Origin: a virus
Virus record (IMG/VR): IMGVR_UViG_3300030099_008323
Coordinates: 1-64,000 of that record
Length of the DNA: 64,000 nucleotides
Reading direction: 5' to 3' (one strand)
Part shown: piece by piece, positions 37,531 to 63,786 of the stretch
Layout of the letters: each line of letters starts with the position of its first letter
Position numbering within the stretch: the first letter of the stretch is position 1
Notes under the pieces: model-generated
Databases searched by the model: none
Seen by the model: only the letters and a program-made list of their open reading frames with translations
Told to the model about the DNA's origin: nothing
Made by a program: the position numbers and the translations under genes

Positions 37531-37554
37531 GGCGCACCCTCGCGAGATATACTA

Positions 37555-37562
37555 TAAATAGT
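37555..37562 (-). promoter_or_regulatory. candidate late-promoter motif ACTATTTA (within palindrome ACTAT-TT-ATAGT)
   Basis: Intergenic, upstream of tape measure. Confidence 0.65.
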
Positions 37563-42715: not shown

Positions 42716-42769
42716 GTTATATGCTCCTTAAATACAAATAGTCCAAATTATACAGAACTTTTCCTTTAA

Positions 42770-42777
42770 TAAATAGT
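42770..42777 (-). promoter_or_regulatory. candidate late-promoter motif ACTATTTA
   Basis: Intergenic, upstream of sheath; near-copy ACTATTTG at 42735-42742. Confidence 0.65.
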
Positions 42778-46206: not shown

Positions 46207-46230
46207 AGTATAACTCCCAAGTTACTAATA

Positions 46231-46238
46231 TAAATAGT
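46231..46238 (-). promoter_or_regulatory. candidate late-promoter motif ACTATTTA
   Basis: Immediately after the terminator, upstream of 46206. Confidence 0.65.
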
Positions 46239-46870: not shown

Positions 46871-48727
46871 TTAGCTTGCGCCAGCTTCGCCAAGGAGGCC
46901 GCGACATACGACAAGACCGTACATATCAGGACGGACCATCTTCTTAGCGTAACGGGTCATGACACCCTTACGTGGCACGAAGTCTTCCGTACCAAAGATG
47001 GTAGGAGTGACCTGTAGCGGGACGTAAGGAGCGTAAACAAATCCGCTCTCCAAGAAGCTTCCACCTTTACGACCAACGAGAATAAGATTTCTCATGAAAT
47101 AAGGATCAACATAAACATCGAACTTCTTCGAAATCGATCCAACATTCACAGCACCAACAGTGCCACGATCTGCATCGGCGGTGACGCTAGCACGGAAACC
47201 AGCAGTAAACTCAAGGATATTAGCAACTTCAGGTGATGTCACCAAGAAGTTAGCTCCACCACGAAGAGTCTTTCTGTGGATCTGGGCTGAAACGTCATTA
47301 ATGGTCTCAATAAGAGTCTCGTACCACTCGCTAACCGTACCAGTGAAGTCAGGAGCAGCTGCCGTAGCACCAAGCTCTGCACCGGTTAGGCGGTTAACAA
47401 ATAGACCAGGTGAGCGTGACCAGTAGTAAGTACCAGCGGTTGCACCCTGAACGAGATCATTGAGAATCTCACGATCGATCTCTAAAGCAATCTGCTCAGA
47501 GAGGATCTGGGTAAGCTCAACCTCAGCGTCGAGATTGTGGTAAGCATTGAGGTCCTGACCAAGTTCAGGAGTCCACTTTGCCTTGAGCTTTTTGGTGACA
47601 GCGGTAACAGCGATGCTGTCAACCTTGATGTCAATCTCAGGGATATCATCGTTAACATTCACGCCATTGAACAATGAACTATTGCCTTCTCCGGCACCTT
47701 CAAGTCCCCAGTGAGCCGTACCAACAACGGCGCCGAGTGCGTCGCCTTTTGCAAACGCATCAGCTAGTGGGTAAGACAAGTGACAGTCAACTGCAGCAAC
47801 GTCTGCGCTAGAATCAAACGCGTTATCACCATGAAGGGTAAAGAGAATTCTCTTTGTACCATCAGAGGAAATGTGAGTTCTAGTAAGACGACGAACAATG
47901 CGAGCGTCCTCATTGCCCTGCTGACCAAATGCTGTACCATCAGAACCTGAAGGAGTCAAATTAAGAGCGATTGGGTTGTTGTGGTTGATTGAATTCCAGA
48001 CAGCGTCTGTAACTGTAACCATAACCTGAGCAACTTTGTCAGTGCCCTCAGCGGCGAGAAGATCAGGATCGTAACGAAGCTGCTTCTTCTGTGCCTCAGA
48101 GAGCGCATTAATGTTGGTCTCAGTTTGGAGATCAGCAGTAATATCGCCATATCCCGCTGCGGCTGTTGTAGCATCTGCAACAAGAACAGCTGAATTAGCA
48201 ATGATAATAGAACCAGTCGGTGATGCATAGCCGTTATTTAAGTTGTAGAAACTCTTATCAGCATTGTCACCATCATAAAGGAGGTTGCCGTCTCTCGCCT
48301 CTTGGCTAAGATCGACACCACCAGTAAGCTGGCTACCAACAACTCCACCACCGTACAAGGACTGATCTGCACGTGCATTAGTTCTAGTATCAGTGAAAGT
48401 GAAGTCCATGAAGAAAATGAGGCCGGAGGGCAAGCTCATTGGCTGCACGGAAACAAGCTCGTTGGCCAAAAGACCACCGAACACACGACGAACGATTGGG
48501 AATGCAACAGATGCAAAACCTTCAACGTCGCCACCAGCCATCGAGGAAGCCTCTTTAAGAAGCTGCGCGGCTTGGTTTTCTAATAGACGGGCCATGCCCT
48601 GTCTCTTGCTATCGTTTTCGATACCCTCAAGAAGTCCAGTGCGCTCCCACTTTTCTAGCAAAGCAGCACCCTCTTTCTGTAGGCTTCTCTCAACGATGCC
48701 TTCAGTTAATTTTTTTAAAACAGACAT
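46871..48727 (-). CDS. gp23: major capsid protein (T4 gp23-like) with enlarged insertion domain
   Basis: VQPMSLPSGLIF, KKLKAKWTPELGQDL, EIDREIL, YAPYVPL, KGVMTRYA. Confidence 0.97.
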   Translation of the reverse strand: MSVLKKLTEGIVERSLQKEGAALLEKWERTGLLEGIENDSKRQGMARLLENQAAQLLKEASSMAGGDVEGFASVAFPIVRRVFGGLLANELVSVQPMSLPSGLIFFMDFTFTDTRTNARADQSLYGGGVVGSQLTGGVDLSQEARDGNLLYDGDNADKSFYNLNNGYASPTGSIIIANSAVLVADATTAAAGYGDITADLQTETNINALSEAQKKQLRYDPDLLAAEGTDKVAQVMVTVTDAVWNSINHNNPIALNLTPSGSDGTAFGQQGNEDARIVRRLTRTHISSDGTKRILFTLHGDNAFDSSADVAAVDCHLSYPLADAFAKGDALGAVVGTAHWGLEGAGEGNSSLFNGVNVNDDIPEIDIKVDSIAVTAVTKKLKAKWTPELGQDLNAYHNLDAEVELTQILSEQIALEIDREILNDLVQGATAGTYYWSRSPGLFVNRLTGAELGATAAAPDFTGTVSEWYETLIETINDVSAQIHRKTLRGGANFLVTSPEVANILEFTAGFRASVTADADRGTVGAVNVGSISKKFDVYVDPYFMRNLILVGRKGGSFLESGFVYAPYVPLQVTPTIFGTEDFVPRKGVMTRYAKKMVRPDMYGLVVCRGLLGEAGAS

Positions 48728-53369: not shown

Positions 53370-53768
53370 CTATATTAAATGCTTCCATCTACCTTTTGAC
53401 AACTTCTCAATATTTGATATATCAACTCCTGCGTCGACCGGAGATACTCCTGCCAGTGCTGAAGATGGTGAACCATCTGCTATTTGCTTTGTACCTTCAA
53501 AAACGTCGGCGCCAAGTTTAGATTTTGCAGATTCGTTTAGTCTTCTTATTCTTTCCTGTCTGTTCCTCTCATATTCTTCAGCTTTTGCTTGTTGGTCCGC
53601 GGTTGAGAGATTGCTTGCTTTGGCCTCAACAACTAAATTACCCTGCAGTCCGCGGGCGACCTCCTGAACTATACCGGATAATATACCCTCTTCTAATATA
53701 ACCTCTTTAACTGTTTGCTTAATTAGCGGCTTAAGTATTTTTTTAAAATCAGAAGTTTTCATTCTCAC
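53370..53768 (-). CDS. hypothetical head-cluster protein
   Basis: KKILKPLIKQTVKEVILEEG N-terminus. Confidence 0.7.
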   Translation of the reverse strand: MRMKTSDFKKILKPLIKQTVKEVILEEGILSGIVQEVARGLQGNLVVEAKASNLSTADQQAKAEEYERNRQERIRRLNESAKSKLGADVFEGTKQIADGSPSSALAGVSPVDAGVDISNIEKLSKGRWKHLI

Positions 53769-54396
53769 CTCGTGTTAATATTTTCTCAAATAAGTTATCT
53801 AAATCACTATTTTTTGATTCATTTATATATAAATTAATTTTATTATCCATTTGTGTGTTAGCACTTAATGTTTTGTCTAAGTAAGCGCCAGGTGTTGATG
53901 GCTCCGACACAATGTCAAAGCAAATTAATTGAAAGTCGTCCTCAACAATCGTTTTACCTTTTTCTTGTTTTACAGAACCTAGGCCTCTAGAGGATATTCC
54001 TAATTTAACATTTGCTTTTACAAGATCTTTTAAGATCTGTCCAGATGGCGTATCTAAAACCTCAATTTTTCCCATCACATCATTGCCCTGCCACCATGTC
54101 TTAGTAACAAGGTGCGAAGCATTTTTGAGATTGATAACAGAATCATCAGGATGGTCTAGTTCACCTAAAGATCTACGCTCACTAATTGATTTTTGATAAT
54201 TAGCGACTTCTCTCTCTAGAGTTTCTTTTCGATAAACACGACCATTGCCGTTTTTTGTACCGGCTTTTTGAATGATGCCAACAAGATAGACTGCTCCGTC
54301 CATAACATTTCTCTTTTCTGATTCGTTAAGAGCATGCACGGGACATCTACCTTCAGGGCATAGTTCAAAATATTCCTGAAGAAGCTGTTTACTCAT
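53749..54396 (-). CDS. gp21: prohead core protease (T4 gp21-like)
   Basis: NGNGRVY, LGELDHP, GISSRGLGS, FDIVSEPSTPGAY. Confidence 0.95.
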   Translation of the reverse strand: MSKQLLQEYFELCPEGRCPVHALNESEKRNVMDGAVYLVGIIQKAGTKNGNGRVYRKETLEREVANYQKSISERRSLGELDHPDDSVINLKNASHLVTKTWWQGNDVMGKIEVLDTPSGQILKDLVKANVKLGISSRGLGSVKQEKGKTIVEDDFQLICFDIVSEPSTPGAYLDKTLSANTQMDNKINLYINESKNSDLDNLFEKILTRGENENF

Positions 54397-55502: not shown

Positions 55503-56283
55503 CTGATTGAATTCTAAATATATCGAATATTAGACTTTCATCCAGCTTTCTCTCTCTGTAAGTTTCTATTTTTTCTAATACTTTTTGAATTTTGCTTGAT
55601 GTGTTGTCATCATAAGAATTTTTGTTTTCTGACAAAAAAGATTTTATATTGTCCATCTGCTCATATAGATAAGCCTTAAACTCTAAGTTGTTTTCATCTG
55701 TAGAGTTAACATAGTTAAAAACTAATCTTTTTTGGTCTTCACTCAGCACAGAAGAATATTTTTCATTAAATTTTTCAACAAAATTTTTCATCGCCAGGTT
55801 GTTAACTTTTGGAAACTTATTGTTTTCTTTTTTAATATCCACATACGATGACAGAATTTTCTGTTCTAACAATACTTGCTTCTTAGGAGGATTTTTTTGC
55901 ACCAATATTTGGTTAATCGTCGCAAGGTTCTTGTAGTTTGGCACAAAGTTGTTCCACATTTTATCATCTAAATTATTAATTTCCTGTATTATACTATTTT
56001 GTATTTTAAAGATCTTCTCCCTGTTTAGAGATAAAAATTGTTTTTTTGCTTCTAAAAGAATTTTTTCTTGTAAGGGACGTTCAATATCATCCAAAGTTGC
56101 TATGGACTTATAGATCTCTAGATCTTCTTTTAATAACTTTCCTCTGGAGAAATATTTTGTAATAATCTCTACAATGCCTTGTTTTTTCTTTATATTTTCG
56201 CTCAACGAGGCTTTTGTCAGCTCTCTTATCAGGACTTCAAAAACAAAAGCTGTATTTCTTTTTTTATTATGGCTATACTTCAT
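55471..56283 (-). CDS. hypothetical helical protein downstream of portal
   Basis: 270 aa; HNKKRNTAFVFEVLIRE N-terminus. Confidence 0.75.
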   Translation of the reverse strand: MKYSHNKKRNTAFVFEVLIRELTKASLSENIKKKQGIVEIITKYFSRGKLLKEDLEIYKSIATLDDIERPLQEKILLEAKKQFLSLNREKIFKIQNSIIQEINNLDDKMWNNFVPNYKNLATINQILVQKNPPKKQVLLEQKILSSYVDIKKENNKFPKVNNLAMKNFVEKFNEKYSSVLSEDQKRLVFNYVNSTDENNLEFKAYLYEQMDNIKSFLSENKNSYDDNTSSKIQKVLEKIETYRERKLDESLIFDIFRIQSVVKELQRNVI

Positions 56284-58270
56284 CTGTGGATCTCTCCAGT
56301 GATTCTATTAATCTTTTTACTTCAGTGCTCTCAGAGAAGATATTTTTCTCTTCTTGATCATAATAATTAGAAGCTAAATCTTCTGAAAGACCTTTATAAG
56401 AAAAGCGAGTTAATTCTGCTCCAGGTAAATAAGATCTTGGGCTAGTGCCTGTGTACTGCTGTCCTCCAGAGGCTTGCGCACTTCTTTTGTAAGCACCCAA
56501 AGATCTTTTATCAGACGGCTCGCGAACATACCTTTTGCCTTTTGACCTCTCAGTTACGTATCCATCATCTCTTTTACCAGGGGGCGGAGTTGGTGCGGCA
56601 GCATCTCCACCTGGACTAGCTAAAAGAGGGCCGGCGTCGTCTGCTCCACCTGCAGCAGGCGTATCGGCTCCTGGCTCAGGAGTTTCTGGTGCTGGAGCAT
56701 CAGGAGGAGTATCTGGAGCGTCACCCGGTGCGTCTAAATCTAATCCGGCGCCGAGATTTCCACCGAGATCAGCAGCACCGCCACCGCCTCCGGCCGCAGC
56801 TGCTGCTTCAGCAACTTGCTCTAGGGCAAAATCATGCTTCCTATCGTAGAACATCTCATGTTGCATACGCTCAAACTCTTCCTCATTAACATTAAGGATG
56901 TTTTTGGCAACCCATCTTCTGCTAAAGTATCCTTCAGTAGCCTCAGCTGCGGCAGCAAATCTAGATTTCCAATGCTCTAGCTCTTGAAGCTCAGCTAATT
57001 TTGAAGGATTGTTTAGATTTAGCTTAAATGATAGCAAGTCATTGCCACGATAGCCTAAAGTAAATAAATGAATAATACAGATTTTTTCTAATTCAGAAAT
57101 AATCGATCTTTGTAGCCTCTGTACAGTTCTAGCAAAACGTATATCTTTTTGTGCTAAAGTAGATTTATCTTCGCTAGCGCCTTCACCGTTAGAGAGGTAT
57201 GCCATAGGTATCTTCAAAGCGCTAAAAAGCTTATCTCTTAAATATTTAATATCCTCAATATCACCGGTGTAGCTTCCGCCGCCCAAGCTTTCTATTTTTG
57301 TGCTGGAAGCGCCGCCTCTAACAGGTATGTAATAATCTTCCTCCACACTTAAAGGGTTATATCTTAAATCAACTCTTCCAGAGTTAACATCAACAATTTG
57401 ATTTCTTTTCATCTGTGTCATGACACGCTGCATATATTGCTCTATGTCTTCAGGTGGAATATTGCCAACATCAATATAAAATACTCTTCTTTCAGGCGAT
57501 CGAACAATTCTATAAGCCATCACTGCATCTTCTAATAATGTTAATTGGCGCCATATTCTTCGGGCAGGCTCAAGTATTGAAGTACCATATGGTGCAAACT
57601 TGTCATTACCCAAAACTCTAAAATGGCCGACTTGCCAGTTCTCTAATGTTAGGCCGGCAGTATTCCATTGGTATTGAATATAGTTTGGATTATTTTTATC
57701 TTCGCCCTCGATTCTTTCTACTTCATTTGTTGGTAACCCTATGACATTCTTGATTCCCTCATCCTCTTCAATATCAAGATATAAGAAAAAATCACCATAT
57801 TTGCACATTGAGCGGCTCCAACCATATAAATTAAACTCTATGTTAAGAACATTATGAAGAAGGGTATCTATGACAGTTTTTATTTCTTGATTGGTACACA
57901 AAATGTTAATAATTGGCCTGTAGACTGAAGAAGTGGTCATTTCATCAGCATATATATCCAATGCAGAAGCTATTTCAGGGGTATATTCCATTTGATCAAA
58001 ATCAATATATCTGTCAACCCTGCTTTGATTAGCATACATATCTGCTTGCAGTGAATCGTAAACGTCGTAAGAAGATAGTTTAAATTCTTGACCGCTGGCA
58101 GATCTAAAGCGAGTTTTATATTTATCTAGCTGTCTTCTTTTTAATCTTTTTGTATCTTGCCTTCTATACTTAACTAAAGGTCCTGAAAGGAGCTTTGTTA
58201 ACTGACGGAATAGAGGACTAGTCTCATTCCTAGGATTATGTTTTTTGCCTTTTCTATATGGTTGAACCAT
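56273..58270 (-). CDS. gp20: portal protein (T4 gp20-like) with Pro/Ala-rich C-terminal extension
   Basis: PEIASALDIYADE, ILEPARRIWRQLTLLEDAVMAYRIVRSPERRVFYIDVGN, EDYYIPVRGG, DIEDIKY, DIRFAR. Confidence 0.96.
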   Translation of the reverse strand: MVQPYRKGKKHNPRNETSPLFRQLTKLLSGPLVKYRRQDTKRLKRRQLDKYKTRFRSASGQEFKLSSYDVYDSLQADMYANQSRVDRYIDFDQMEYTPEIASALDIYADEMTTSSVYRPIINILCTNQEIKTVIDTLLHNVLNIEFNLYGWSRSMCKYGDFFLYLDIEEDEGIKNVIGLPTNEVERIEGEDKNNPNYIQYQWNTAGLTLENWQVGHFRVLGNDKFAPYGTSILEPARRIWRQLTLLEDAVMAYRIVRSPERRVFYIDVGNIPPEDIEQYMQRVMTQMKRNQIVDVNSGRVDLRYNPLSVEEDYYIPVRGGASSTKIESLGGGSYTGDIEDIKYLRDKLFSALKIPMAYLSNGEGASEDKSTLAQKDIRFARTVQRLQRSIISELEKICIIHLFTLGYRGNDLLSFKLNLNNPSKLAELQELEHWKSRFAAAAEATEGYFSRRWVAKNILNVNEEEFERMQHEMFYDRKHDFALEQVAEAAAAAGGGGGAADLGGNLGAGLDLDAPGDAPDTPPDAPAPETPEPGADTPAAGGADDAGPLLASPGGDAAAPTPPPGKRDDGYVTERSKGKRYVREPSDKRSLGAYKRSAQASGGQQYTGTSPRSYLPGAELTRFSYKGLSEDLASNYYDQEEKNIFSESTEVKRLIESLERSTDEV

Positions 58271-58273
58271 TTT

Positions 58274-59860
58274 TTACCCCTTTAGCAACCAAGAGAAGTT
58301 TTCATACTGTTCTCTTTGTTTGTCAATTTTTTTATCTCGTCGCAACTTATCATATCCTATCATACCTGGTATGCTCGTGTTCAACTTTCTATCCGTAGAA
58401 GACAAAGAAGAAAGAAAAGCTTTTTGATATTGAATATCCCTTTGGTTAACATCATATGCTACTTCCCTAACCCAACACCCAATCGCACAAGCCATGATCA
58501 AATCATCATTATATTTTTTCATAGCCTGTGGTTTGCCGTTGTGCCAAACAAATGTCCTCATTTCATCATGTAATCTTTTTGATTTTATATTAATTAGTTT
58601 ATTTCTAACAAACTCTTCTAATTTAGCGACGATCAAAGGTCTTGTCTTCATTGTAGTTGAAAAGCCAGGTACAACAGAATTCATTCCTTCAGCCTGTAAT
58701 GGATCAACATATTCGTGTGTGGATTTTTTAGAATAATACACATTAGGATATCCTACCTCAATCAGTTTATTTACAACTGTCCAGCCAACAGTGTTGTTCT
58801 CAACTACAATCATACAATTTCCAAATTCTCTACCAATTGATAGAAGCATGTCAGAAAAAACATCTGGAGTGGGCTTTCCTTGATATTCTGCAATTATTTC
58901 ATTTGTTTCAATTTTAAATATCATGAAAGTTGAATAATCTTTTCCGTCTCCTCTAGCTACATCTGCAGCTAGCATATAGTTGCTCTCATTTTCATATTCT
59001 TCCCATATCCACAAATTTCTATCAAAGCCTGTTTTATACTTTGGCTCGCATATATCTTTAGAGATTATTTCTAAATCCTCTGGGTGAAAGACAGTCTCAC
59101 CAGACATGTTGAAATTACATTCAAGCTCTTGTGCGATTTGACGTCGAGACATGTTTCTAGTTTCTTTCTCAAACCAAGATTTGTCTCTTTCAGGATGCAC
59201 ATCCCAAGGTAAAGTTGTGATGTAGAAGTTATTTTTTTCAGACTGCGCATCAACACAAGTTTGGTGAAACCAGTTTCCTACACCATTCGGCGTTGACAAA
59301 GCAATACAGCGCCCACCAGTTGAGAGAGTTGGATAGAGGCCTGTCCATAATTCATCCAAACCTTCAACATGTGCTGCCTCATCAATGACAAGCAAAGATA
59401 AAGCCTCAGAGCGACCAGCATCTGAGCTTGTAGAACTAGCTTTTATTTGTGATCCATTTGATAACTCAAAAGAAGTTCTATTATCAATTGAAATGTTTGA
59501 TATGCGCATCCAGTTTGGTAAATTTTTGTGTATTGATTTTACTTTCTTTACCAAGTTTGCAGCAGTGCCAAATTTTGTGGCTATGACTAGAACATTTTTG
59601 TCGCGGTGAAACAGCATCAGCCAAGCAATATAAGCAGCAGATATAGTAGATATACCTAACTGGCGCGCCTTCAAAACAACGTTAAAGCGATGATCATTAA
59701 AATCATGTAGAAGTGTGGTCTGAAAATCGTAAGTCTTAAAAGGAATTAATCCATGCATCGGATGAGATATTTTAGCATAGTTGTTTATAAAATAAACAGG
59801 ATCCTTGCCAGATTTTAAGATTTCCTTTACTATATCATCTTTTGTTAGCTGAAAAGACAT
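58274..59860 (-). CDS. terL: terminase large subunit (T4 gp17-like)
   Basis: LKARQLGIST, LVIDEAAH, STPNG, ADVARGDGKDYS, NDDLIM. Confidence 0.96.
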   Translation of the reverse strand: MSFQLTKDDIVKEILKSGKDPVYFINNYAKISHPMHGLIPFKTYDFQTTLLHDFNDHRFNVVLKARQLGISTISAAYIAWLMLFHRDKNVLVIATKFGTAANLVKKVKSIHKNLPNWMRISNISIDNRTSFELSNGSQIKASSTSSDAGRSEALSLLVIDEAAHVEGLDELWTGLYPTLSTGGRCIALSTPNGVGNWFHQTCVDAQSEKNNFYITTLPWDVHPERDKSWFEKETRNMSRRQIAQELECNFNMSGETVFHPEDLEIISKDICEPKYKTGFDRNLWIWEEYENESNYMLAADVARGDGKDYSTFMIFKIETNEIIAEYQGKPTPDVFSDMLLSIGREFGNCMIVVENNTVGWTVVNKLIEVGYPNVYYSKKSTHEYVDPLQAEGMNSVVPGFSTTMKTRPLIVAKLEEFVRNKLINIKSKRLHDEMRTFVWHNGKPQAMKKYNDDLIMACAIGCWVREVAYDVNQRDIQYQKAFLSSLSSTDRKLNTSIPGMIGYDKLRRDKKIDKQREQYENFSWLLKG

Positions 59861-60421: not shown

Positions 60422-60787
60422 TTATTTATTATTTTTGCAAGGGACATGTCTTTCATATTTTTCTATATAACATCTCTCACAGCACAAGTACTTAATCATG
60501 TAAATATCGTCATTAATTGATTTAATTCTTGTATTACACAGAGTACAATTTAATTTTCTCTCTTTATTAAGTAGTTTGCGGGTTATTAAAACACCGTCAA
60601 CATTTTCTAGTTCAGACGTGTGCTCAAAAGACTTCTCTTTATCAATACGCTCTTGTAATTGTTGTATATATTCTTCTTCTTTATCTCTGTTCCAATAACT
60701 AGCTGGATTCTGTATAGCCTCTTCACCATATTTTTTTTTAATTGCCTTTTCAAGACCAGCTATATAATTTAGATCTTTTTTGCTCAT
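60422..60787 (-). CDS. hypothetical protein with C-terminal zinc finger
   Basis: Start MSKKDL at 60787 (ATGA overlap); CTLC...CCERC. Confidence 0.75.
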   Translation of the reverse strand: MSKKDLNYIAGLEKAIKKKYGEEAIQNPASYWNRDKEEEYIQQLQERIDKEKSFEHTSELENVDGVLITRKLLNKERKLNCTLCNTRIKSINDDIYMIKYLCCERCYIEKYERHVPCKNNK

Positions 60788-61242
60788 CTTGCAATTTCCA
60801 CGCTGGCGTAAAATACCGCCACAGATAATAATATTCCAATTGTTACTCCTCCTAATACCCACCACTCTGTGTGGCTGGGCTTCATTTCTTCTTTCAACAT
60901 TAAATTTAAATCGTTTATCTGCTGCTCTTTTATTTTAATTGTTTCTTCATGTATCTTCTTTAACGAATCATGGTCAATCCTTAGAAGATCGTAAGCCATT
61001 CTTTTATCAGCTAAATCTTTTTGAAACTCTTTCCTTAGCTCCAGCTCAATTTCCATGCGAAGATACTTCTGATCTACAATCATCTTTGATGCCGCAACAG
61101 AATCAAGTAAAACACCAGCAAATGGCGCTTCCTCATCGATAGCAAGAGAAGTTACTCTACCATCTAGCCCTTCAGCATTAGCTTGAAGGGGGAATACAAA
61201 AATAGCCAACGCCACAAATAAAGATATTATTTTTCTTAGCAT
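60784..61242 (-). CDS. signal-peptide + coiled-coil + C-terminal TM protein (spanin-like)
   Basis: ANA|E signal peptidase I-type site; WWVLGGVTIGILLSVAVF transmembrane segment. Confidence 0.55.
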   Translation of the reverse strand: MLRKIISLFVALAIFVFPLQANAEGLDGRVTSLAIDEEAPFAGVLLDSVAASKMIVDQKYLRMEIELELRKEFQKDLADKRMAYDLLRIDHDSLKKIHEETIKIKEQQINDLNLMLKEEMKPSHTEWWVLGGVTIGILLSVAVFYASVEIAR

Positions 61243-61245
61243 ATA

Positions 61246-61647
61246 TCACCCTTTTTTTAAGAACTCTGAACTTAAAATTTTTGCAATGTCCTCTGCTAAC
61301 TTTTCAGGTCTATCTTTGTTTTTTTCAATTGTTTCTGCAAGCTCTTTTTGCTTTTCAATTTCAAGCTCTTCAACTTTGATATCATGTTCTTCTTCAATTT
61401 TTCTGATTTCTTCAACGTGTTCTTCAACAGCTTGCTCTTTTTTAACGTCTTTTTGTTCATTGACTTCCTTTATAACTTTTATTTCTTTTTCGTAATTCTC
61501 TTTAGACTTCATCAAAAGACCAAAAAGCTTCTCTTTCAAGCCTTTACTGGACACCATTGAAAATATCAACAATATTATTATAGCAGGCCAATACCAATAA
61601 TGTTTAACCCAAGTCCAAACTTTTTTCCAAAAAAGTGCGGAAAGCAT
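61246..61647 (-). CDS. N-terminal TM + coiled-coil protein (i-spanin-like)
   Basis: Start MLSALFWKK at 61647 (TAATG overlap); WYWPAIIILLIFSMV then K/E coiled coil. Confidence 0.55.
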   Translation of the reverse strand: MLSALFWKKVWTWVKHYWYWPAIIILLIFSMVSSKGLKEKLFGLLMKSKENYEKEIKVIKEVNEQKDVKKEQAVEEHVEEIRKIEEEHDIKVEELEIEKQKELAETIEKNKDRPEKLAEDIAKILSSEFLKKG

Positions 61648-61763
61648 TAGCAACCACCGCAACTCACACACTTGCAGCAAGCGCAGCAAGCTTTGCAGCA
61701 TTCTTCTATGCAGCAGCATGCTCTCTTAAATAAGTTTAAAAATTTCTGTAATAATGATTTCAT
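61647..61763 (-). CDS. 38-aa cysteine-rich peptide (12 Cys), metallothionein-like, not in ORF track
   Basis: ACAGGAG RBS; MKSLLQKFLNLFKRACCCIEECCKACCACCKCVSCGGC*; stop overlaps the next ATG. Confidence 0.8.
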   Translation of the reverse strand: MKSLLQKFLNLFKRACCCIEECCKACCACCKCVSCGGC

Positions 61764-61779
61764 TTGTTTTCTCCTGTAA

Positions 61780-62064
61780 TTATTGATTAAAGCGCCCTAG
61801 TCGATGGATAATTCTATCCAAATGTACTTCAGTTTTCATATCTCTAAGAGAACTCAAGGCTAAATCCATGCTATCATATTTCAAGCCTCTTGCTCCTTTT
61901 CTAAGACCCTCAAGTACTTGCTTTAGCCTTGCAGCTGCCATTTGTATTTGTTTGGCGGCTTCGATTCCCTCCTCGGGACTAAAAGCAGACTCAGCATTCT
62001 CCAGCTCTTCTTTAATAATTTGTTTTAATTTTGATCTTGTAATCTTCACTTTCCGTGCCTCCAT
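61780..62064 (-). CDS. hypothetical protein
   Basis: KITRSKLKQIIKEELE N-terminus. Confidence 0.7.
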   Translation of the reverse strand: MEARKVKITRSKLKQIIKEELENAESAFSPEEGIEAAKQIQMAAARLKQVLEGLRKGARGLKYDSMDLALSSLRDMKTEVHLDRIIHRLGRFNQ

Positions 62065-62240
62065 TGTGTTGCGAGGTCGACAAGTGCTTGTGACCCAATA
62101 TAAGCTAATGTGACTGCAACCCAGTCCTCGCTAGTCAAAGCGTTCATATAAACGAGATACGTAGCTGTACCCCACGCTAAAAACTTTCTTGAAATAAATC
62201 GCTCGACGTGTTTGTCAAGCCATGCTCTTACTTGTGACAT
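62046..62240 (-). CDS. holin-like small membrane protein
   Basis: 64 aa; FISRKFLAW followed by two hydrophobic segments. Confidence 0.55.
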   Translation of the reverse strand: MSQVRAWLDKHVERFISRKFLAWGTATYLVYMNALTSEDWVAVTLAYIGSQALVDLATQWRHGK

Positions 62241-62261
62241 AATATAGACCCCCTAACATAC

Positions 62262-62269
62262 TAAATAGT
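62262..62269 (-). promoter_or_regulatory. candidate late-promoter motif ACTATTTA
   Basis: Intergenic, upstream of the holin-like cassette. Confidence 0.65.
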
Positions 62270-62296: not shown

Positions 62297-62695
62297 TTAA
62301 AGACCTGTGAATGTAATTCTTTCACGATCGATACCCATATTATTTTTCCTAAGAAGATCTTGTATACTATCTCGCACAGCTTCTTTTTGTGAGTCCGTAA
62401 TTTTCTTATATGTATCGCGCAGTTCATCATCTGTCATGCTAGTTTTAGTTAGAGATCTCATAAGATCAATGAAAATTTCAGGTGTGACCTGTATGTTATT
62501 AACAACTTTTACAACCGGCCTTATCTTTATCTGCTCTTCTTCTGACTCCGGCGGGAGCTGTGGCGTCGACACATCTAAACTTTGGCCTCCAATCGTTGAT
62601 CCATGGTCTTGGTCAGAATATGGAAGAGATCTACCTCCGCGAGTAGCTTCAGACTCACTAACATATCTTCTCCAATTTTCAAACAATTGTTTCAT
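62297..62695 (-). CDS. hypothetical protein with MKQLFENWRRYVSE N-terminus
   Basis: Late motif 5 nt upstream; no SD. Confidence 0.7.
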   Translation of the reverse strand: MKQLFENWRRYVSESEATRGGRSLPYSDQDHGSTIGGQSLDVSTPQLPPESEEEQIKIRPVVKVVNNIQVTPEIFIDLMRSLTKTSMTDDELRDTYKKITDSQKEAVRDSIQDLLRKNNMGIDRERITFTGL

Positions 62696-62700
62696 AGTTA

Positions 62701-62708
62701 TAAATAGT
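62701..62708 (-). promoter_or_regulatory. candidate late-promoter motif ACTATTTA
   Basis: 5 nt from the ATG of 62695. Confidence 0.6.
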
Positions 62709-63774: not shown

Positions 63775-63778
63775 GTAA

Positions 63779-63786
63779 TAAATAGT
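63779..63786 (-). promoter_or_regulatory. candidate late-promoter motif ACTATTTA
   Basis: 4 nt from the ATG of 63774. Confidence 0.6.

What the first reader, a model, noticed from the sequence alone, without database searches (positions are those of the whole stretch)
61647..61772. Unannotated 38-aa metallothionein-like peptide (12 Cys in the last 23 residues) in the late lysis-like cassette
Sequence: ACAGGAG RBS, then MKSLLQKFLNLFKRA-CCCIEECCKACCACCKCVSCGGC-TAA, with TAATG overlap into the i-spanin-like gene, which is strong evidence of translation. The N-terminal 14 aa form a cationic amphipathic helix. Knowledge: metallothioneins bind Zn/Cu/Cd through CC/CxC/CxxC clusters, bacterial ones (SmtA, MymT) are small, and Cys-rich cores after a leader also typify RiPP precursors. 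Cationic amphipathic peptides such as phiKT gp28 disrupt outer membranes in place of spanins. Inference: a membrane-targeted metal-binding peptide, a disruptin-like lysis factor or a RiPP substrate; to my knowledge not described in phages. The many Zn-finger ORFs in this window make metal buffering plausible.
Basis: partly seen in the sequence, partly recalled or inferred. Interest (0 to 1): 0.85.

Follow-up and report, generated by a model that had tools for sequence, protein, structure and literature searches.

The report
Cysteine-string microprotein of marine phages
The 38-codon ORF is a real, conserved gene for a tiny protein (a short positively charged helix followed by a string of 12 cysteines) found in a clade of large uncultured ocean phages; it most likely holds a metal-sulphur cluster, but its job is untested.

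Summary
Window 61647-61763 (minus strand) encodes 38 aa with 12 Cys in the last 23 residues. AGGAG lies 7 nt upstream, and the stop overlaps the next gene's start (TAATG).

It is a real gene. I found 55 distinct relatives (30-41 aa) at 70 marine viral or metagenome loci, and none in 596 Gb of cellular genomes. Third codon positions vary about three times as often as first or second. Every Cys column mixes TGT and TGC. The N-terminal helix has dN/dS of about 0.2. One copy is present in all five complete genomes of this T4-like myovirus clade.

There are two subtypes: 38-40 aa with CCC and CCACC motifs, and 30-34 aa with an HCCCCC motif.

No known family matches (Pfam, NCBIfam, PHROGs, PDB, GenBank phages).

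RiPP maturases do not co-occur. No attenuator-like RNA structure was found. The "lysis cassette" and "many Zn fingers" context is not supported.

Best reading, an inference at about 0.45: a metallothionein-like metal-thiolate microprotein docked by a cationic amphipathic helix.

This scan already flagged the short subtype in another genome (e1-5411270).

The parts
61647..61763 (-). 38-codon gene (stop included) for the cysteine-string microprotein, long subtype
   Evidence: ORF listing and sequence. There are 55 distinct homologues at 70 loci (alignment A1). The coding signature is clear: 14, 10 and 33 of 39 sites vary at codon positions 1, 2 and 3.
61771..61775 (-). Shine-Dalgarno AGGAG, 7 nt before the ATG
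   Evidence: Sequence. 53 of 60 distinct family contexts have GGAG, GAGG or AGGA at -16 to -4.
61719..61760 (-). Codons 2-15: cationic amphipathic N-terminal helix (hydrophobic positions 4, 5, 8, 9, 11, 12; charge +4)
   Evidence: Hydrophobic moment 0.70, reached by 57 of 5000 shuffles. AF2 helix over residues 2-12. dN/dS is 0.24 in the long type and 0.20 in the short type, with the pattern-forced NLF codons excluded.
61650..61718 (-). Codons 16-38: cysteine string, 12 Cys in 23 residues, containing the CCC and CCACC motifs; no aromatic residues
   Evidence: Sequence. Cys columns are invariant or nearly so in A1. Every Cys column of the 38-aa type uses both TGT and TGC, with nonsynonymous p = 0.
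61645..61649 (-). TAATG stop/start overlap with the downstream gene
   Evidence: Sequence. Relatives show the same kind of overlap (TAATG, TAGTG, TGATG) with whatever gene follows.
61246..61647 (-). Downstream gene (133 aa): N-terminal hydrophobic segment plus a highly charged helical region. Clade-specific, function unknown.
   Evidence: ORF. Homologues in 35 of 80 TerL-related loci start at the same position. No significant family match.
61780..62049 (-). Upstream gene (89 aa from the GTG start) carrying the clade's repeated N-terminal 'MKIT...IIKEE' leader. It has swapped order with the Cys gene in locus L002 and is absent in L244.
62046..62240 (-). 64-aa, very conserved small protein (94% identical in L002, against 79% for TerL). 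In 7 of the 52 family contexts that reach at least 200 nt upstream, its stop overlaps the Cys gene's ATG (ATGA).
   Evidence: The hydrophobic segments are below a standard TM threshold. No homologue in GenBank phages.
62260..62268 (-). Candidate late-promoter motif CTATTTA[TG][AT], 19 nt before the 64-aa gene. It heads the unit that contains the Cys gene.
   Evidence: The motif occurs 14 times on the gene strand and once on the other strand of the genome. Several copies precede large ORFs in the virion-gene region (758, 1154, 347, 365, 1788 aa). No convincing terminator lies between it and TerL.

Best explanation
Window 61647-61763 (minus strand) is a genuine protein-coding gene. It sits in a tightly coupled run of genes, behind a late-promoter-like motif, that continues into the terminase and portal genes. 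It belongs to an undescribed family of 30-41-aa microproteins restricted to a clade of large (about 186-192 kb) uncultured marine T4-like myoviruses, with one copy per genome.

The product has two parts. Residues 2-15 form a cationic amphipathic helix under purifying selection. I infer that it docks the peptide onto a membrane surface or a partner protein. Residues 16-38 form a cysteine string: 10-12 thiolates separated by small or polar residues, and in the short subtype preceded by a His. I infer that in the reducing cytoplasm this string folds only around metal ions, as a metal-thiolate cluster (Zn/Cd-type M3-4 or Cu(I)-type), in the way metallothioneins do.

What is shown: the gene is real, it is under selection, the Cys residues and the helix are conserved, it is virus-specific, and it is core to the clade. 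What is inferred: metal binding, docking, and any role in metal hand-off, sequestration or virion chemistry.
For: Gene reality:
- SD site and coupled stop/start.
- 55 distinct homologues at 70 marine viral or metagenome loci. These came from a 54-nt degenerate pattern that gave 8 true of 9 hits in IMG/VR, 60 of 68 in metagenomes, and 0 of 10 in 596 Gb of cellular genomes.
- Variable sites at codon positions 1, 2 and 3 are 14, 10 and 33 of 39 in the 38-aa type and 13, 10 and 30 of 32 in the 31-aa type. Most codon differences between family members are nonsynonymous in the two alternative frames.

Selection on the product:
- Cys columns have nonsynonymous p = 0 while TGT and TGC interchange.
- The helix has dN/dS of 0.20-0.24.
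- Spacer residues in the short type are nearly free to vary, at 0.79.

Core status:
- All five CheckV-100% genomes examined (G000, G003, G004, G009, G010) carry it. G000, G009 and G010 each gave exactly one match.

Chemistry:
- 52-63% Cys in the tail, with no aromatic residues and CC, CxC and CxxC spacings.
- AF2 leaves the tail unstructured and models only helix 2-12, as expected for an apo metal-dependent fold.
- The helix has a hydrophobic moment of 0.70 and charge +4.

Late context:
- A strand-specific motif that also precedes large ORFs in the virion-gene region heads the operon. No terminator lies before TerL.

An independent follow-up in this scan reached the same reading for the short subtype in another genome (e1-5411270). 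That is a lead, not evidence.
Against: - No metallothionein HMM matches (Pfam at E <= 0.1). There is no PDB relative, so 'metallothionein' rests on composition only.
- The Cys density (52-63%) and the runs of 3-5 consecutive Cys exceed those of classical metallothioneins (about 30%). They resemble palmitoylated cysteine strings more closely.
- Nothing links the gene to metal transport or metal-dependent genes. The 'many Zn fingers' argument fails.
- The gene's commonest neighbours are leader-bearing cargo-like genes, which hints at a virion-related or regulatory role instead.
- No experiment exists for any member.
Confidence: 0.45

Rival explanations
1. Virion-internal or ejected cargo. The N-terminal helix acts like a T4 capsid-targeting sequence. 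The Cys string is then packed with the DNA, cross-linked or metal-loaded in the virion, and delivered to the next host.
For: - The phage has a T4 gp21-type prohead protease (Peptidase_S77, E 4e-31).
- The genome carries arrays of genes with two repeated N-terminal leaders ending in [ILV]-x-E. This recalls the T4 internal proteins, which share only a capsid-targeting sequence (PMC3012670).
- In 36 of 58 contexts with downstream sequence, the Cys gene is followed directly by a leader gene. That is 30 type B and 6 type A, against about 6% of SD-led ORF starts being type B.
- It lies in a late operon with TerL and portal.
- A few members end in basic, AT-hook-like tails.
- Short-subtype helices usually end in F-x-[DE] just before the His.
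Against: - The Cys helix scores only at about the 88th percentile against PSSMs of either leader, so homology is not supported.
- The long subtype, including the window's gene, has no [LI]-x-E site at the helix end.
- That the leaders are capsid-targeting signals is itself unproven.
- There is no virion proteome for this uncultured clade.
Confidence: 0.17
2. Membrane-active or membrane-anchored late factor. The cationic amphipathic helix lies on the inner membrane. The peptide then helps lysis (disruptin- or antiholin-like), or it is tethered there, possibly by S-acylation of the Cys string.
For: - Hydrophobic moment 0.70 and charge +4.
- In the window, and in 7 of the 52 contexts that reach at least 200 nt upstream, the gene is start/stop-coupled to a small conserved hydrophobic protein. 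In 9 contexts the next gene is a TM/coiled-coil or signal-peptide protein.
- Late operon.
- The Cys density matches eukaryotic palmitoylated cysteine strings (my own knowledge).
- In one genome a 4HBT thioesterase gene overlaps the Cys gene.
Against: - No endolysin, lipobox or recognised holin or spanin family lies nearby.
- The 64-aa neighbour's hydrophobic segments are below a TM threshold.
- Most family members are not next to membrane proteins.
- No DHHC acyltransferase is in the genome, and none is known in bacteria.
- The Cys string has no obvious role in membrane disruption.
Confidence: 0.13
3. Cysteine-sensing translational gate. The ORF's function is its run of Cys codons. Ribosome pausing when Cys-tRNA is scarce would tune translation of the coupled downstream gene, as polycysteine sORFs do in mycobacteria.
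For: - Runs of 3-5 consecutive Cys codons, with 10-12 in all.
- Stop/start overlap or close spacing with the next gene in most loci.
- Precedent: polycysteine short ORFs attenuate operon expression through ribosome stalling (bioRxiv 10.1101/834739).
Against: - Non-Cys residues of the helix are under purifying selection (dN/dS 0.2), and specific motifs (CCACC, His before the run) are kept. A pure codon sensor needs none of this.
- The mRNA around the ORF folds no better than shuffles (z = 0.20).
- Third positions vary freely, so there is no conserved RBS-sequestering duplex.
- The ORF is SD-led and internal to an operon, not a leaderless first ORF.
- The downstream genes are diverse. Those inspected contain few or no Cys, and none matched a cysteine-metabolism family.
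Confidence: 0.08
4. RiPP precursor. The helix is a leader and the Cys string is a core that is cross-linked or heterocyclised by a maturase.
For: - Leader-plus-Cys-rich-core layout, with a size typical of precursors.
- The genome does encode two radical SAM proteins (lead from e1-5814826).
Against: - The radical SAM genes lie 60 kb away in a sugar operon.
- Complete genomes G009 and G010 have the peptide but no radical SAM gene. G006 has a radical SAM gene but no peptide.
- No MbnB/DUF692, YcaO or LanC in the genome.
- No NCBIfam precursor model matches at E <= 1.
- No peptidase or exporter gene is adjacent.
- Host-encoded maturases cannot be excluded.
Confidence: 0.05

Closest known systems
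Metallothioneins (bacterial SmtA/BmtA PF02069, mycobacterial MymT, small fungal Cu-thioneins, vertebrate alpha-domain with its CCxCC motif)
   Same: Tiny size, a very Cys-rich tail with CC, CxC and CxxC spacings, no aromatic residues in the Cys domain, and a tail predicted to be disordered without metal. A His adjoins the Cys run in the short subtype; SmtA also uses His ligands.
   Different: No detectable sequence or profile similarity. The Cys density is nearly twice as high, with runs of 3-5 consecutive Cys. It has an added conserved N-terminal amphipathic helix. It is encoded only by phages and lies in a run of genes with terminase and portal. Metal binding is untested.
Ten-cysteine microprotein family noted earlier in this scan (e1-5411270, another genome)
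   Same: By its description, probably the short subtype found here (30-34 aa, 10-11 Cys, HCCCCC motif), in large marine phages and translationally coupled.
   Different: The window's gene is the longer subtype (38-40 aa, 11-12 Cys, CCC...CCACC). I did not see the other genome's sequence, so the link rests on the description only.
Polycysteine short ORF attenuators of mycobacteria (Canestrari et al., bioRxiv 10.1101/834739)
   Same: A short ORF with consecutive Cys codons directly upstream of other genes in an operon.
   Different: Here the ORF is SD-led and internal to the operon. Its non-Cys residues are under selection. There is no RBS-sequestering structure. The downstream genes are unrelated to cysteine metabolism.
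T4 internal proteins with a capsid-targeting sequence (PMC3012670)
   Same: A T4-type phage with a gp21-family protease. The gene sits among hypervariable genes that share short N-terminal leaders, and it has a short N-terminal helix followed by 'cargo'.
   Different: The Cys helix is not significantly similar to the genome's leaders. The long subtype lacks an [LI]-x-E cleavage site. Packaging is untested.
Palmitoylated cysteine strings (CSP-alpha/DnaJC5 string domain; coronavirus spike endodomain) - from my own knowledge
   Same: Comparable Cys density (about 55-60%) next to a membrane-seeking segment.
   Different: Those are eukaryotic, and DHHC enzymes acylate them. This is a bacterial virus with no DHHC gene.
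SCIFF/ranthipeptide and methanobactin (MbnA) precursors
   Same: A 30-45-aa peptide with a leader and a Cys-rich core.
   Different: No model match, and no co-occurring radical SAM-SPASM or MbnB enzyme.

Membership tests
Metallothionein | Match to a metallothionein sequence family (Pfam MT models, solved MT structures) | tested here: not met
   No Pfam family at E <= 0.1. A profile of 55 members against PDB sequences gave only chance hits, E > 2, in the helix.
Metallothionein | Low mass, high Cys content in CC/CxC/CxxC motifs, no aromatic residues in the Cys domain | tested here: met
   12 Cys in residues 16-38, with no F, W or Y there. The Cys columns are conserved across the family.
Metallothionein | Binds several metal ions in thiolate clusters | not testable with these tools
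   Needs ICP-MS or ESI-MS on expressed peptide. AF2 leaves the tail unstructured, which is compatible but not evidence.
RiPP precursor (SCIFF/ranthipeptide, methanobactin, lanthipeptide, azoline) | A cognate maturase encoded nearby or co-occurring (radical SAM-SPASM, MbnB/DUF692, YcaO, LanC) | tested here: not met
   G000 has no PF05114, PF02624 or PF05147. Its PF04055 genes are 60 kb away. G009 and G010 have the peptide and no PF04055. G006 is the reverse.
RiPP precursor (SCIFF/ranthipeptide, methanobactin, lanthipeptide, azoline) | Match to a curated precursor model | tested here: not met
   NCBIfam: no family at E <= 1 for the long and short subtype.
T4-type capsid-targeted internal protein | Phage encodes a gp21-family prohead protease | tested here: met
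   Window 53749-54396 (-): Peptidase_S77, E 4e-31; phrog_207 head maturation protease, E 1e-61.
T4-type capsid-targeted internal protein | N-terminus shares the phage's repeated targeting leader and ends in [LI]-x-E | tested here: not met
   PSSM scores sit at about the 88th percentile of background for both leader types. The window's helix ends in K-R-A, with no Glu. The short subtype often has F-x-[DE].
T4-type capsid-targeted internal protein | Present inside virions | not testable with these tools
   The clade is uncultured and no proteome is available.
Polycysteine sORF attenuator | Consecutive Cys codons in a short ORF upstream of regulated genes | tested here: met
   CCC or CCCCC runs, with stop/start coupling to the next gene.
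Polycysteine sORF attenuator | mRNA duplex that sequesters the downstream RBS and is opened by a stalled ribosome; peptide sequence itself unimportant | tested here: not met
   Fold z-score 0.20. Third positions vary freely. The helix has dN/dS of 0.2.
Spanin / disruptin lysis proteins | o-spanin lipobox, or homology to known spanin, holin or disruptin families, beside an endolysin | tested here: not met
   The residues before the first Cys are K-R-A (or D/E-H), which is not a lipobox. The peptide and its neighbours have no PHROG or Pfam lysis families. The only peptidoglycan hydrolase I came across (Peptidase_M74) lies about 98 kb away.
Palmitoylated cysteine-string proteins | DHHC acyltransferase available | tested here: not met
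   No PF01529 in the genome. Bacteria are not known to have one (my own knowledge).

The most novel reading that the evidence does not exclude
The family is a phage-specific class of metal-carrying cysteine-string protein. Its conserved helix parks it at the membrane or inside the capsid, so that a widespread group of ocean phages stores, steals or delivers trace metals (Zn, Cu, Cd) during late infection. That would be a viral hand in the marine trace-metal economy.
Probability: 0.25. Interest if true: 0.8.

Novelty: new variant of a known kind. Interest (0 to 1): 0.6.

Why it matters
Small phage genes are systematically missed: only 6 relatives of this family sit among 1.84 billion predicted-protein representatives. 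Yet this one is core to a clade of large marine myoviruses seen in many ocean metagenomes.

If it binds metals, it would be a phage-specific metallothionein-like class. It would give a direct handle on whether viruses manipulate trace metals in metal-poor seawater. If it is instead packaged, lipid-anchored or a Cys sensor, each would be unusual for a bacteriophage.

The peptides are short enough to synthesise, so the main hypotheses are cheap to test.

Tried and rejected
Searches that found nothing or could not run:
- A 43-aa form from L002 found nothing in the 5.8-billion-protein word index.
- The ESM Atlas gave no usable hit.
- tblastn against GenBank phages gave no match for the peptide or for its two neighbours.
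- Complex prediction (four copies of the peptide) was not available, so self-association of the helix was not examined.
- Literature searches for phage or viral metallothionein, cysteine-rich small phage proteins and polycysteine found no description of such a family.

Patterns that did not help:
- Exact degenerate patterns built from the window's Cys tail or helix found only the L002 contig.
- A loose CCxCCKCxxC pattern gave mostly chance matches, but it did yield the first short-subtype member.

Readings rejected:
- N-terminal extension of the downstream gene (the 157-aa ORF from 61719). Homologues start at the TAATG/TAGTG position. The Cys gene is followed by other genes in other genomes. 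The overlapping frames accumulate nonsynonymous change.
- Non-coding repeat or RNA element.
- Lipoprotein or o-spanin: there is no lipobox.
- P0006, a 155-aa 'fused' form: it comes from an 885-bp contig at 1x coverage.
- A shared origin of the Cys helix and the MKIT or ENW leaders: the position-by-position resemblance did not survive a PSSM test.

Upstream genes of other family members gave no informative Pfam hits.
Full report
**1. The observation.**
The minus strand of the window carries a 38-codon ORF at 61647-61763. It begins with ATG at 61763-61761. AGGAG sits at 61775-61771, 7 nt upstream. The stop TAA shares its last base with the ATG (61647-61645) of the next gene, giving TAATG. Residues 16-38 contain 12 cysteines. 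Residues 2-15 carry four net positive charges and have hydrophobic residues at positions 4, 5, 8, 9, 11 and 12. Their helical hydrophobic moment is 0.70, which only 57 of 5000 shuffles reach.

The window is bases 1-64000 of a 186,103-bp IMG/VR virus record that CheckV rates as complete. In that genome this is the only six-frame ORF of 20 aa or more with more than 6 Cys in any 20-residue window; it has 11. The description is therefore accurate.

**2. The setting.**
All genes in the window lie on the minus strand. The phage is a T4-like myovirus:
- a large terminase at 58274-59860 (phrog_2, E 2e-54; best cultured relatives are Flavobacterium phage immuto and Microcystis phage Mel-JY01, at 42-44% identity);
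- a portal at 56273-58270;
- a gp21-type prohead protease at 53749-54396 (Peptidase_S77, E 4e-31);
- a major head protein at 46871-48727.

Reading 5' to 3' on the gene strand, the local order is:
- a fibre-like 347-aa gene;
- a 132-aa gene with an 'ENW' N-terminal leader;
- a 64-aa gene;
- an 89-aa gene with an 'MKIT...IIKEE' leader;
- the Cys gene;
- a 133-aa gene (hydrophobic N-terminus plus a charged helix);
- a 152-aa gene (signal peptide plus a C-terminal TM segment, no lipobox);
- a Zn-ribbon gene;
- a 181-aa gene;
- TerL, then portal.

A strand-specific motif, CTATTTA[TG][AT], occurs 14 times on the gene strand and once on the other. It precedes several large ORFs in the virion-gene region and also the 64-aa gene. 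No convincing terminator follows before TerL. I therefore infer that the Cys gene is expressed late, together with the packaging genes.

**3. It is a gene family.**
Among 80 IMG/VR loci with a related TerL, only the closest long contig (L002) had a homologue within 6 kb of TerL. It is 76% identical and keeps 11 of 12 Cys. There it follows the 64-aa gene through an ATGA overlap and precedes the MKIT-leader gene, so the two small genes have swapped order relative to the window.

A loose Cys pattern then turned up a 31-aa analogue with the same kind of N-terminus. From the three sequences I built a 54-nt degenerate pattern: M-K, seven free codons, N-L-F, three free codons, C-C-C. Its yield was:
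- 9 IMG/VR stretches, 8 of them Cys-rich ORFs;
- 68 metagenome stretches, 60 Cys-rich, from marine datasets;
- 10 stretches in 596 Gb of bacterial and archaeal genomes, none Cys-rich.

In total this gives 70 loci and 55 distinct peptides (alignment A1). A profile search of further relatives' records found members with one extra residue before the Cys run, which the pattern had missed. The family is therefore larger than my count. All five complete genomes of the clade that I examined (G000, G003, G004, G009, G010) carry a copy. The two negative records are 81% and 57% complete.

Two subtypes stand out. The long one is 38-40 aa, with 11-12 Cys and CCC...CCACC motifs, and includes the window's gene. 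The short one is 30-34 aa, with 10-11 Cys and a His directly before a run of five Cys. A few members end in a basic, AT-hook-like tail.

**4. It is translated and selected as a protein.**
In 53 of 60 distinct contexts a GGAG-type SD lies at the right distance. Stops commonly overlap or abut the next start.

| Subtype | Distinct DNA sequences | Variable sites at codon position 1 / 2 / 3 |
|---|---|---|
| 38 aa | 13 | 14 / 10 / 33 of 39 |
| 31 aa | 20 | 13 / 10 / 30 of 32 |

In the annotated frame, synonymous codon differences are as common as or more common than nonsynonymous ones. In the other two frames nonsynonymous differences dominate. Every Cys column of the 38-aa type uses both TGT and TGC while remaining Cys.

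By Nei-Gojobori counting, the helix (codons 3-15, leaving out the NLF codons that the search pattern forces) has dN/dS of 0.24 in the long type and 0.20 in the short type. The invariant Cys codons have no nonsynonymous change. The spacer residues of the short type are almost neutral, at 0.79. Selection therefore acts on the cysteines and on the N-terminal helix. The helix result matters below.

**5. What it is not.**
No family in Pfam, PHROGs or NCBIfam matches. Nor does any PDB sequence, the ESM Atlas or any GenBank phage. Only 6 relatives exist among 1.84 billion predicted-protein representatives.

RiPP precursor. The genome lacks MbnB/DUF692, YcaO and LanC. Its two radical SAM genes are 60 kb away, in a sugar operon. 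The complete genomes G009 and G010 have the peptide but no radical SAM gene, while G006 has the reverse.

Cys-codon attenuator, like the mycobacterial polycysteine sORFs (bioRxiv 10.1101/834739). The mRNA folds no better than shuffles (z = 0.20). Synonymous sites vary freely. The non-Cys helix is under purifying selection. The ORF is SD-led and internal to the operon. The downstream genes are diverse, and none showed a link to cysteine metabolism. A secondary gating effect cannot be excluded.

Lysis cassette. The residues before the first Cys do not form a lipobox. The neighbours match no holin, spanin or endolysin family and have no homologue in GenBank phages. The 64-aa protein's hydrophobic segments fall below a standard TM threshold. 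Only 7 of the 52 contexts that reach at least 200 nt upstream have the 64-aa gene there, and only 9 of 58 have one of the two membrane-type genes downstream.

The 'many Zn fingers' argument is weak. Only 3 of 77 ORFs of 50 aa or more in the window have a CxxC...CxxC/H motif, and the proteome is 1.1% Cys.

**6. The commonest neighbour.**
In 30 of 58 contexts the next gene starts with the clade's 'MKIT...IIKEE' leader, and in 6 with the 'ENW' leader. Type-B leaders make up only about 6% of SD-led ORF starts in the same loci. The genome holds about seven genes of each leader type. Their cargos include a Peptidase_M74 murein endopeptidase and a NUDIX hydrolase.

The presence of a gp21-family protease and the [ILV]-x-E ends of the leaders fit that idea. 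T4 internal proteins are indeed diverse proteins united only by such a sequence (PMC3012670).

By eye, the Cys helix lines up with the MKIT leader. Scored against PSSMs of either leader, however, it reaches only about the 88th percentile of background N-termini. I therefore do not claim homology. The long subtype also has no Glu at the helix end. The adjacency is real but unexplained.

**7. How it most likely works.**
A tail in which half or more of the residues are cysteine, with only small or polar spacers and no aromatic residues, has no way to form a hydrophobic core. AlphaFold, given the 55-sequence alignment, models only helix 2-12 and leaves the rest unstructured (mean pLDDT 53). In a reducing cytoplasm such a peptide should bind soft or borderline metal ions through its thiolates, as metallothioneins do. 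That is the step I think most likely, at about 0.45, and it is an inference from chemistry.

The conserved cationic amphipathic helix would then be a docking element, onto the membrane surface or a partner protein. Its target is unknown.

The Cys density and the runs of 3-5 consecutive Cys go beyond classical metallothioneins. They look more like eukaryotic palmitoylated cysteine strings, but the genome has no DHHC enzyme. The rivals are a virion-internal cargo (0.17), a membrane-active or membrane-anchored late factor (0.13), a Cys-sensing gate (0.08) and a RiPP precursor (0.05). The first two are compatible with metal binding.

**8. Novelty and verdict.**
I found no published description. 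This scan had already flagged, in another genome, a 32-aa ten-cysteine microprotein family of marine phages and reached a similar reading (e1-5411270). From its description, that is probably the short subtype here.

This report adds:
- the long subtype;
- the two-part selection pattern;
- core status in complete genomes;
- absence from cellular genomes;
- the link to leader-gene arrays;
- explicit tests against the RiPP, attenuator, lysis and capsid-leader readings.

I rate it a new variant of a known kind (metal-thiolate microproteins), with moderate-to-high interest. The gene is certain and the function is open.

Noticed in passing
window 61780-62049 (-), 62297-62695 (-); G000 141.9-145.9 kb, 158.7-160.6 kb, 169.0-169.3 kb (loci L299-L301): About 14 genes in the genome share one of two N-terminal leaders ('MKIT...IIKEE' or '...ENW...NE'), followed by unrelated cargos that include Peptidase_M74 and NUDIX. 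The 94-aa ORF upstream of the Cys gene most likely starts at the GTG at 62049, which gives it the MKIT leader and a GTGA overlap with the 64-aa gene.
   Followed up: partly
window 62260-62268, 62699-62707, 63777-63785, 37553-37561, 42768-42776, 46229-46237 (-) and eight more gene-strand sites, two in the window and six elsewhere in G000: The strand-specific motif CTATTTA[TG][AT] occurs 14 times on the gene strand and once on the other. It usually lies 2-55 nt before an ORF, among them several large ones in the virion-gene region, so it is a candidate late promoter of this phage.
   Followed up: partly
window 62046-62240 (-): The 64-aa protein is more conserved than the terminase (94% against 79% identity to L002). 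It has two weakly hydrophobic segments and no homologue in GenBank phages or any library. Its function is unknown.
   Followed up: partly
window 61647-62240 versus L002:3604-4635 and L244: Small-gene shuffling between close relatives. The window has the 64-aa gene, the MKIT gene, the Cys gene and the 133-aa gene. L002 has the 64-aa gene, the Cys gene, an MKIT gene and the 133-aa homologue. L244 has an identical Cys peptide but no MKIT gene. All junctions are start/stop overlaps.
   Followed up: partly
L205:5055-5465 (+) beside L205:5446-5550 (+): In one complete relative (G004), a 4HBT-family acyl-CoA thioesterase gene overlaps the start of the Cys-string gene by 20 nt. This is the only locus with that neighbour.
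   Followed up: no
P0004, P0005; L257:2088-2213 (-): Some short-subtype members carry a C-terminal extension rich in Arg and Lys. One of them contains an RGRP, AT-hook-like core, which hints at contact with nucleic acid.
   Followed up: no
window 60784-61242 (-): A 152-aa protein with a cleavable-looking signal peptide, a conserved 'APF.G.L.D' block, a coiled-coil-like middle and a C-terminal TM segment, but no lipobox Cys. It is conserved in 40 of 80 related loci and has no known family.
   Followed up: partly
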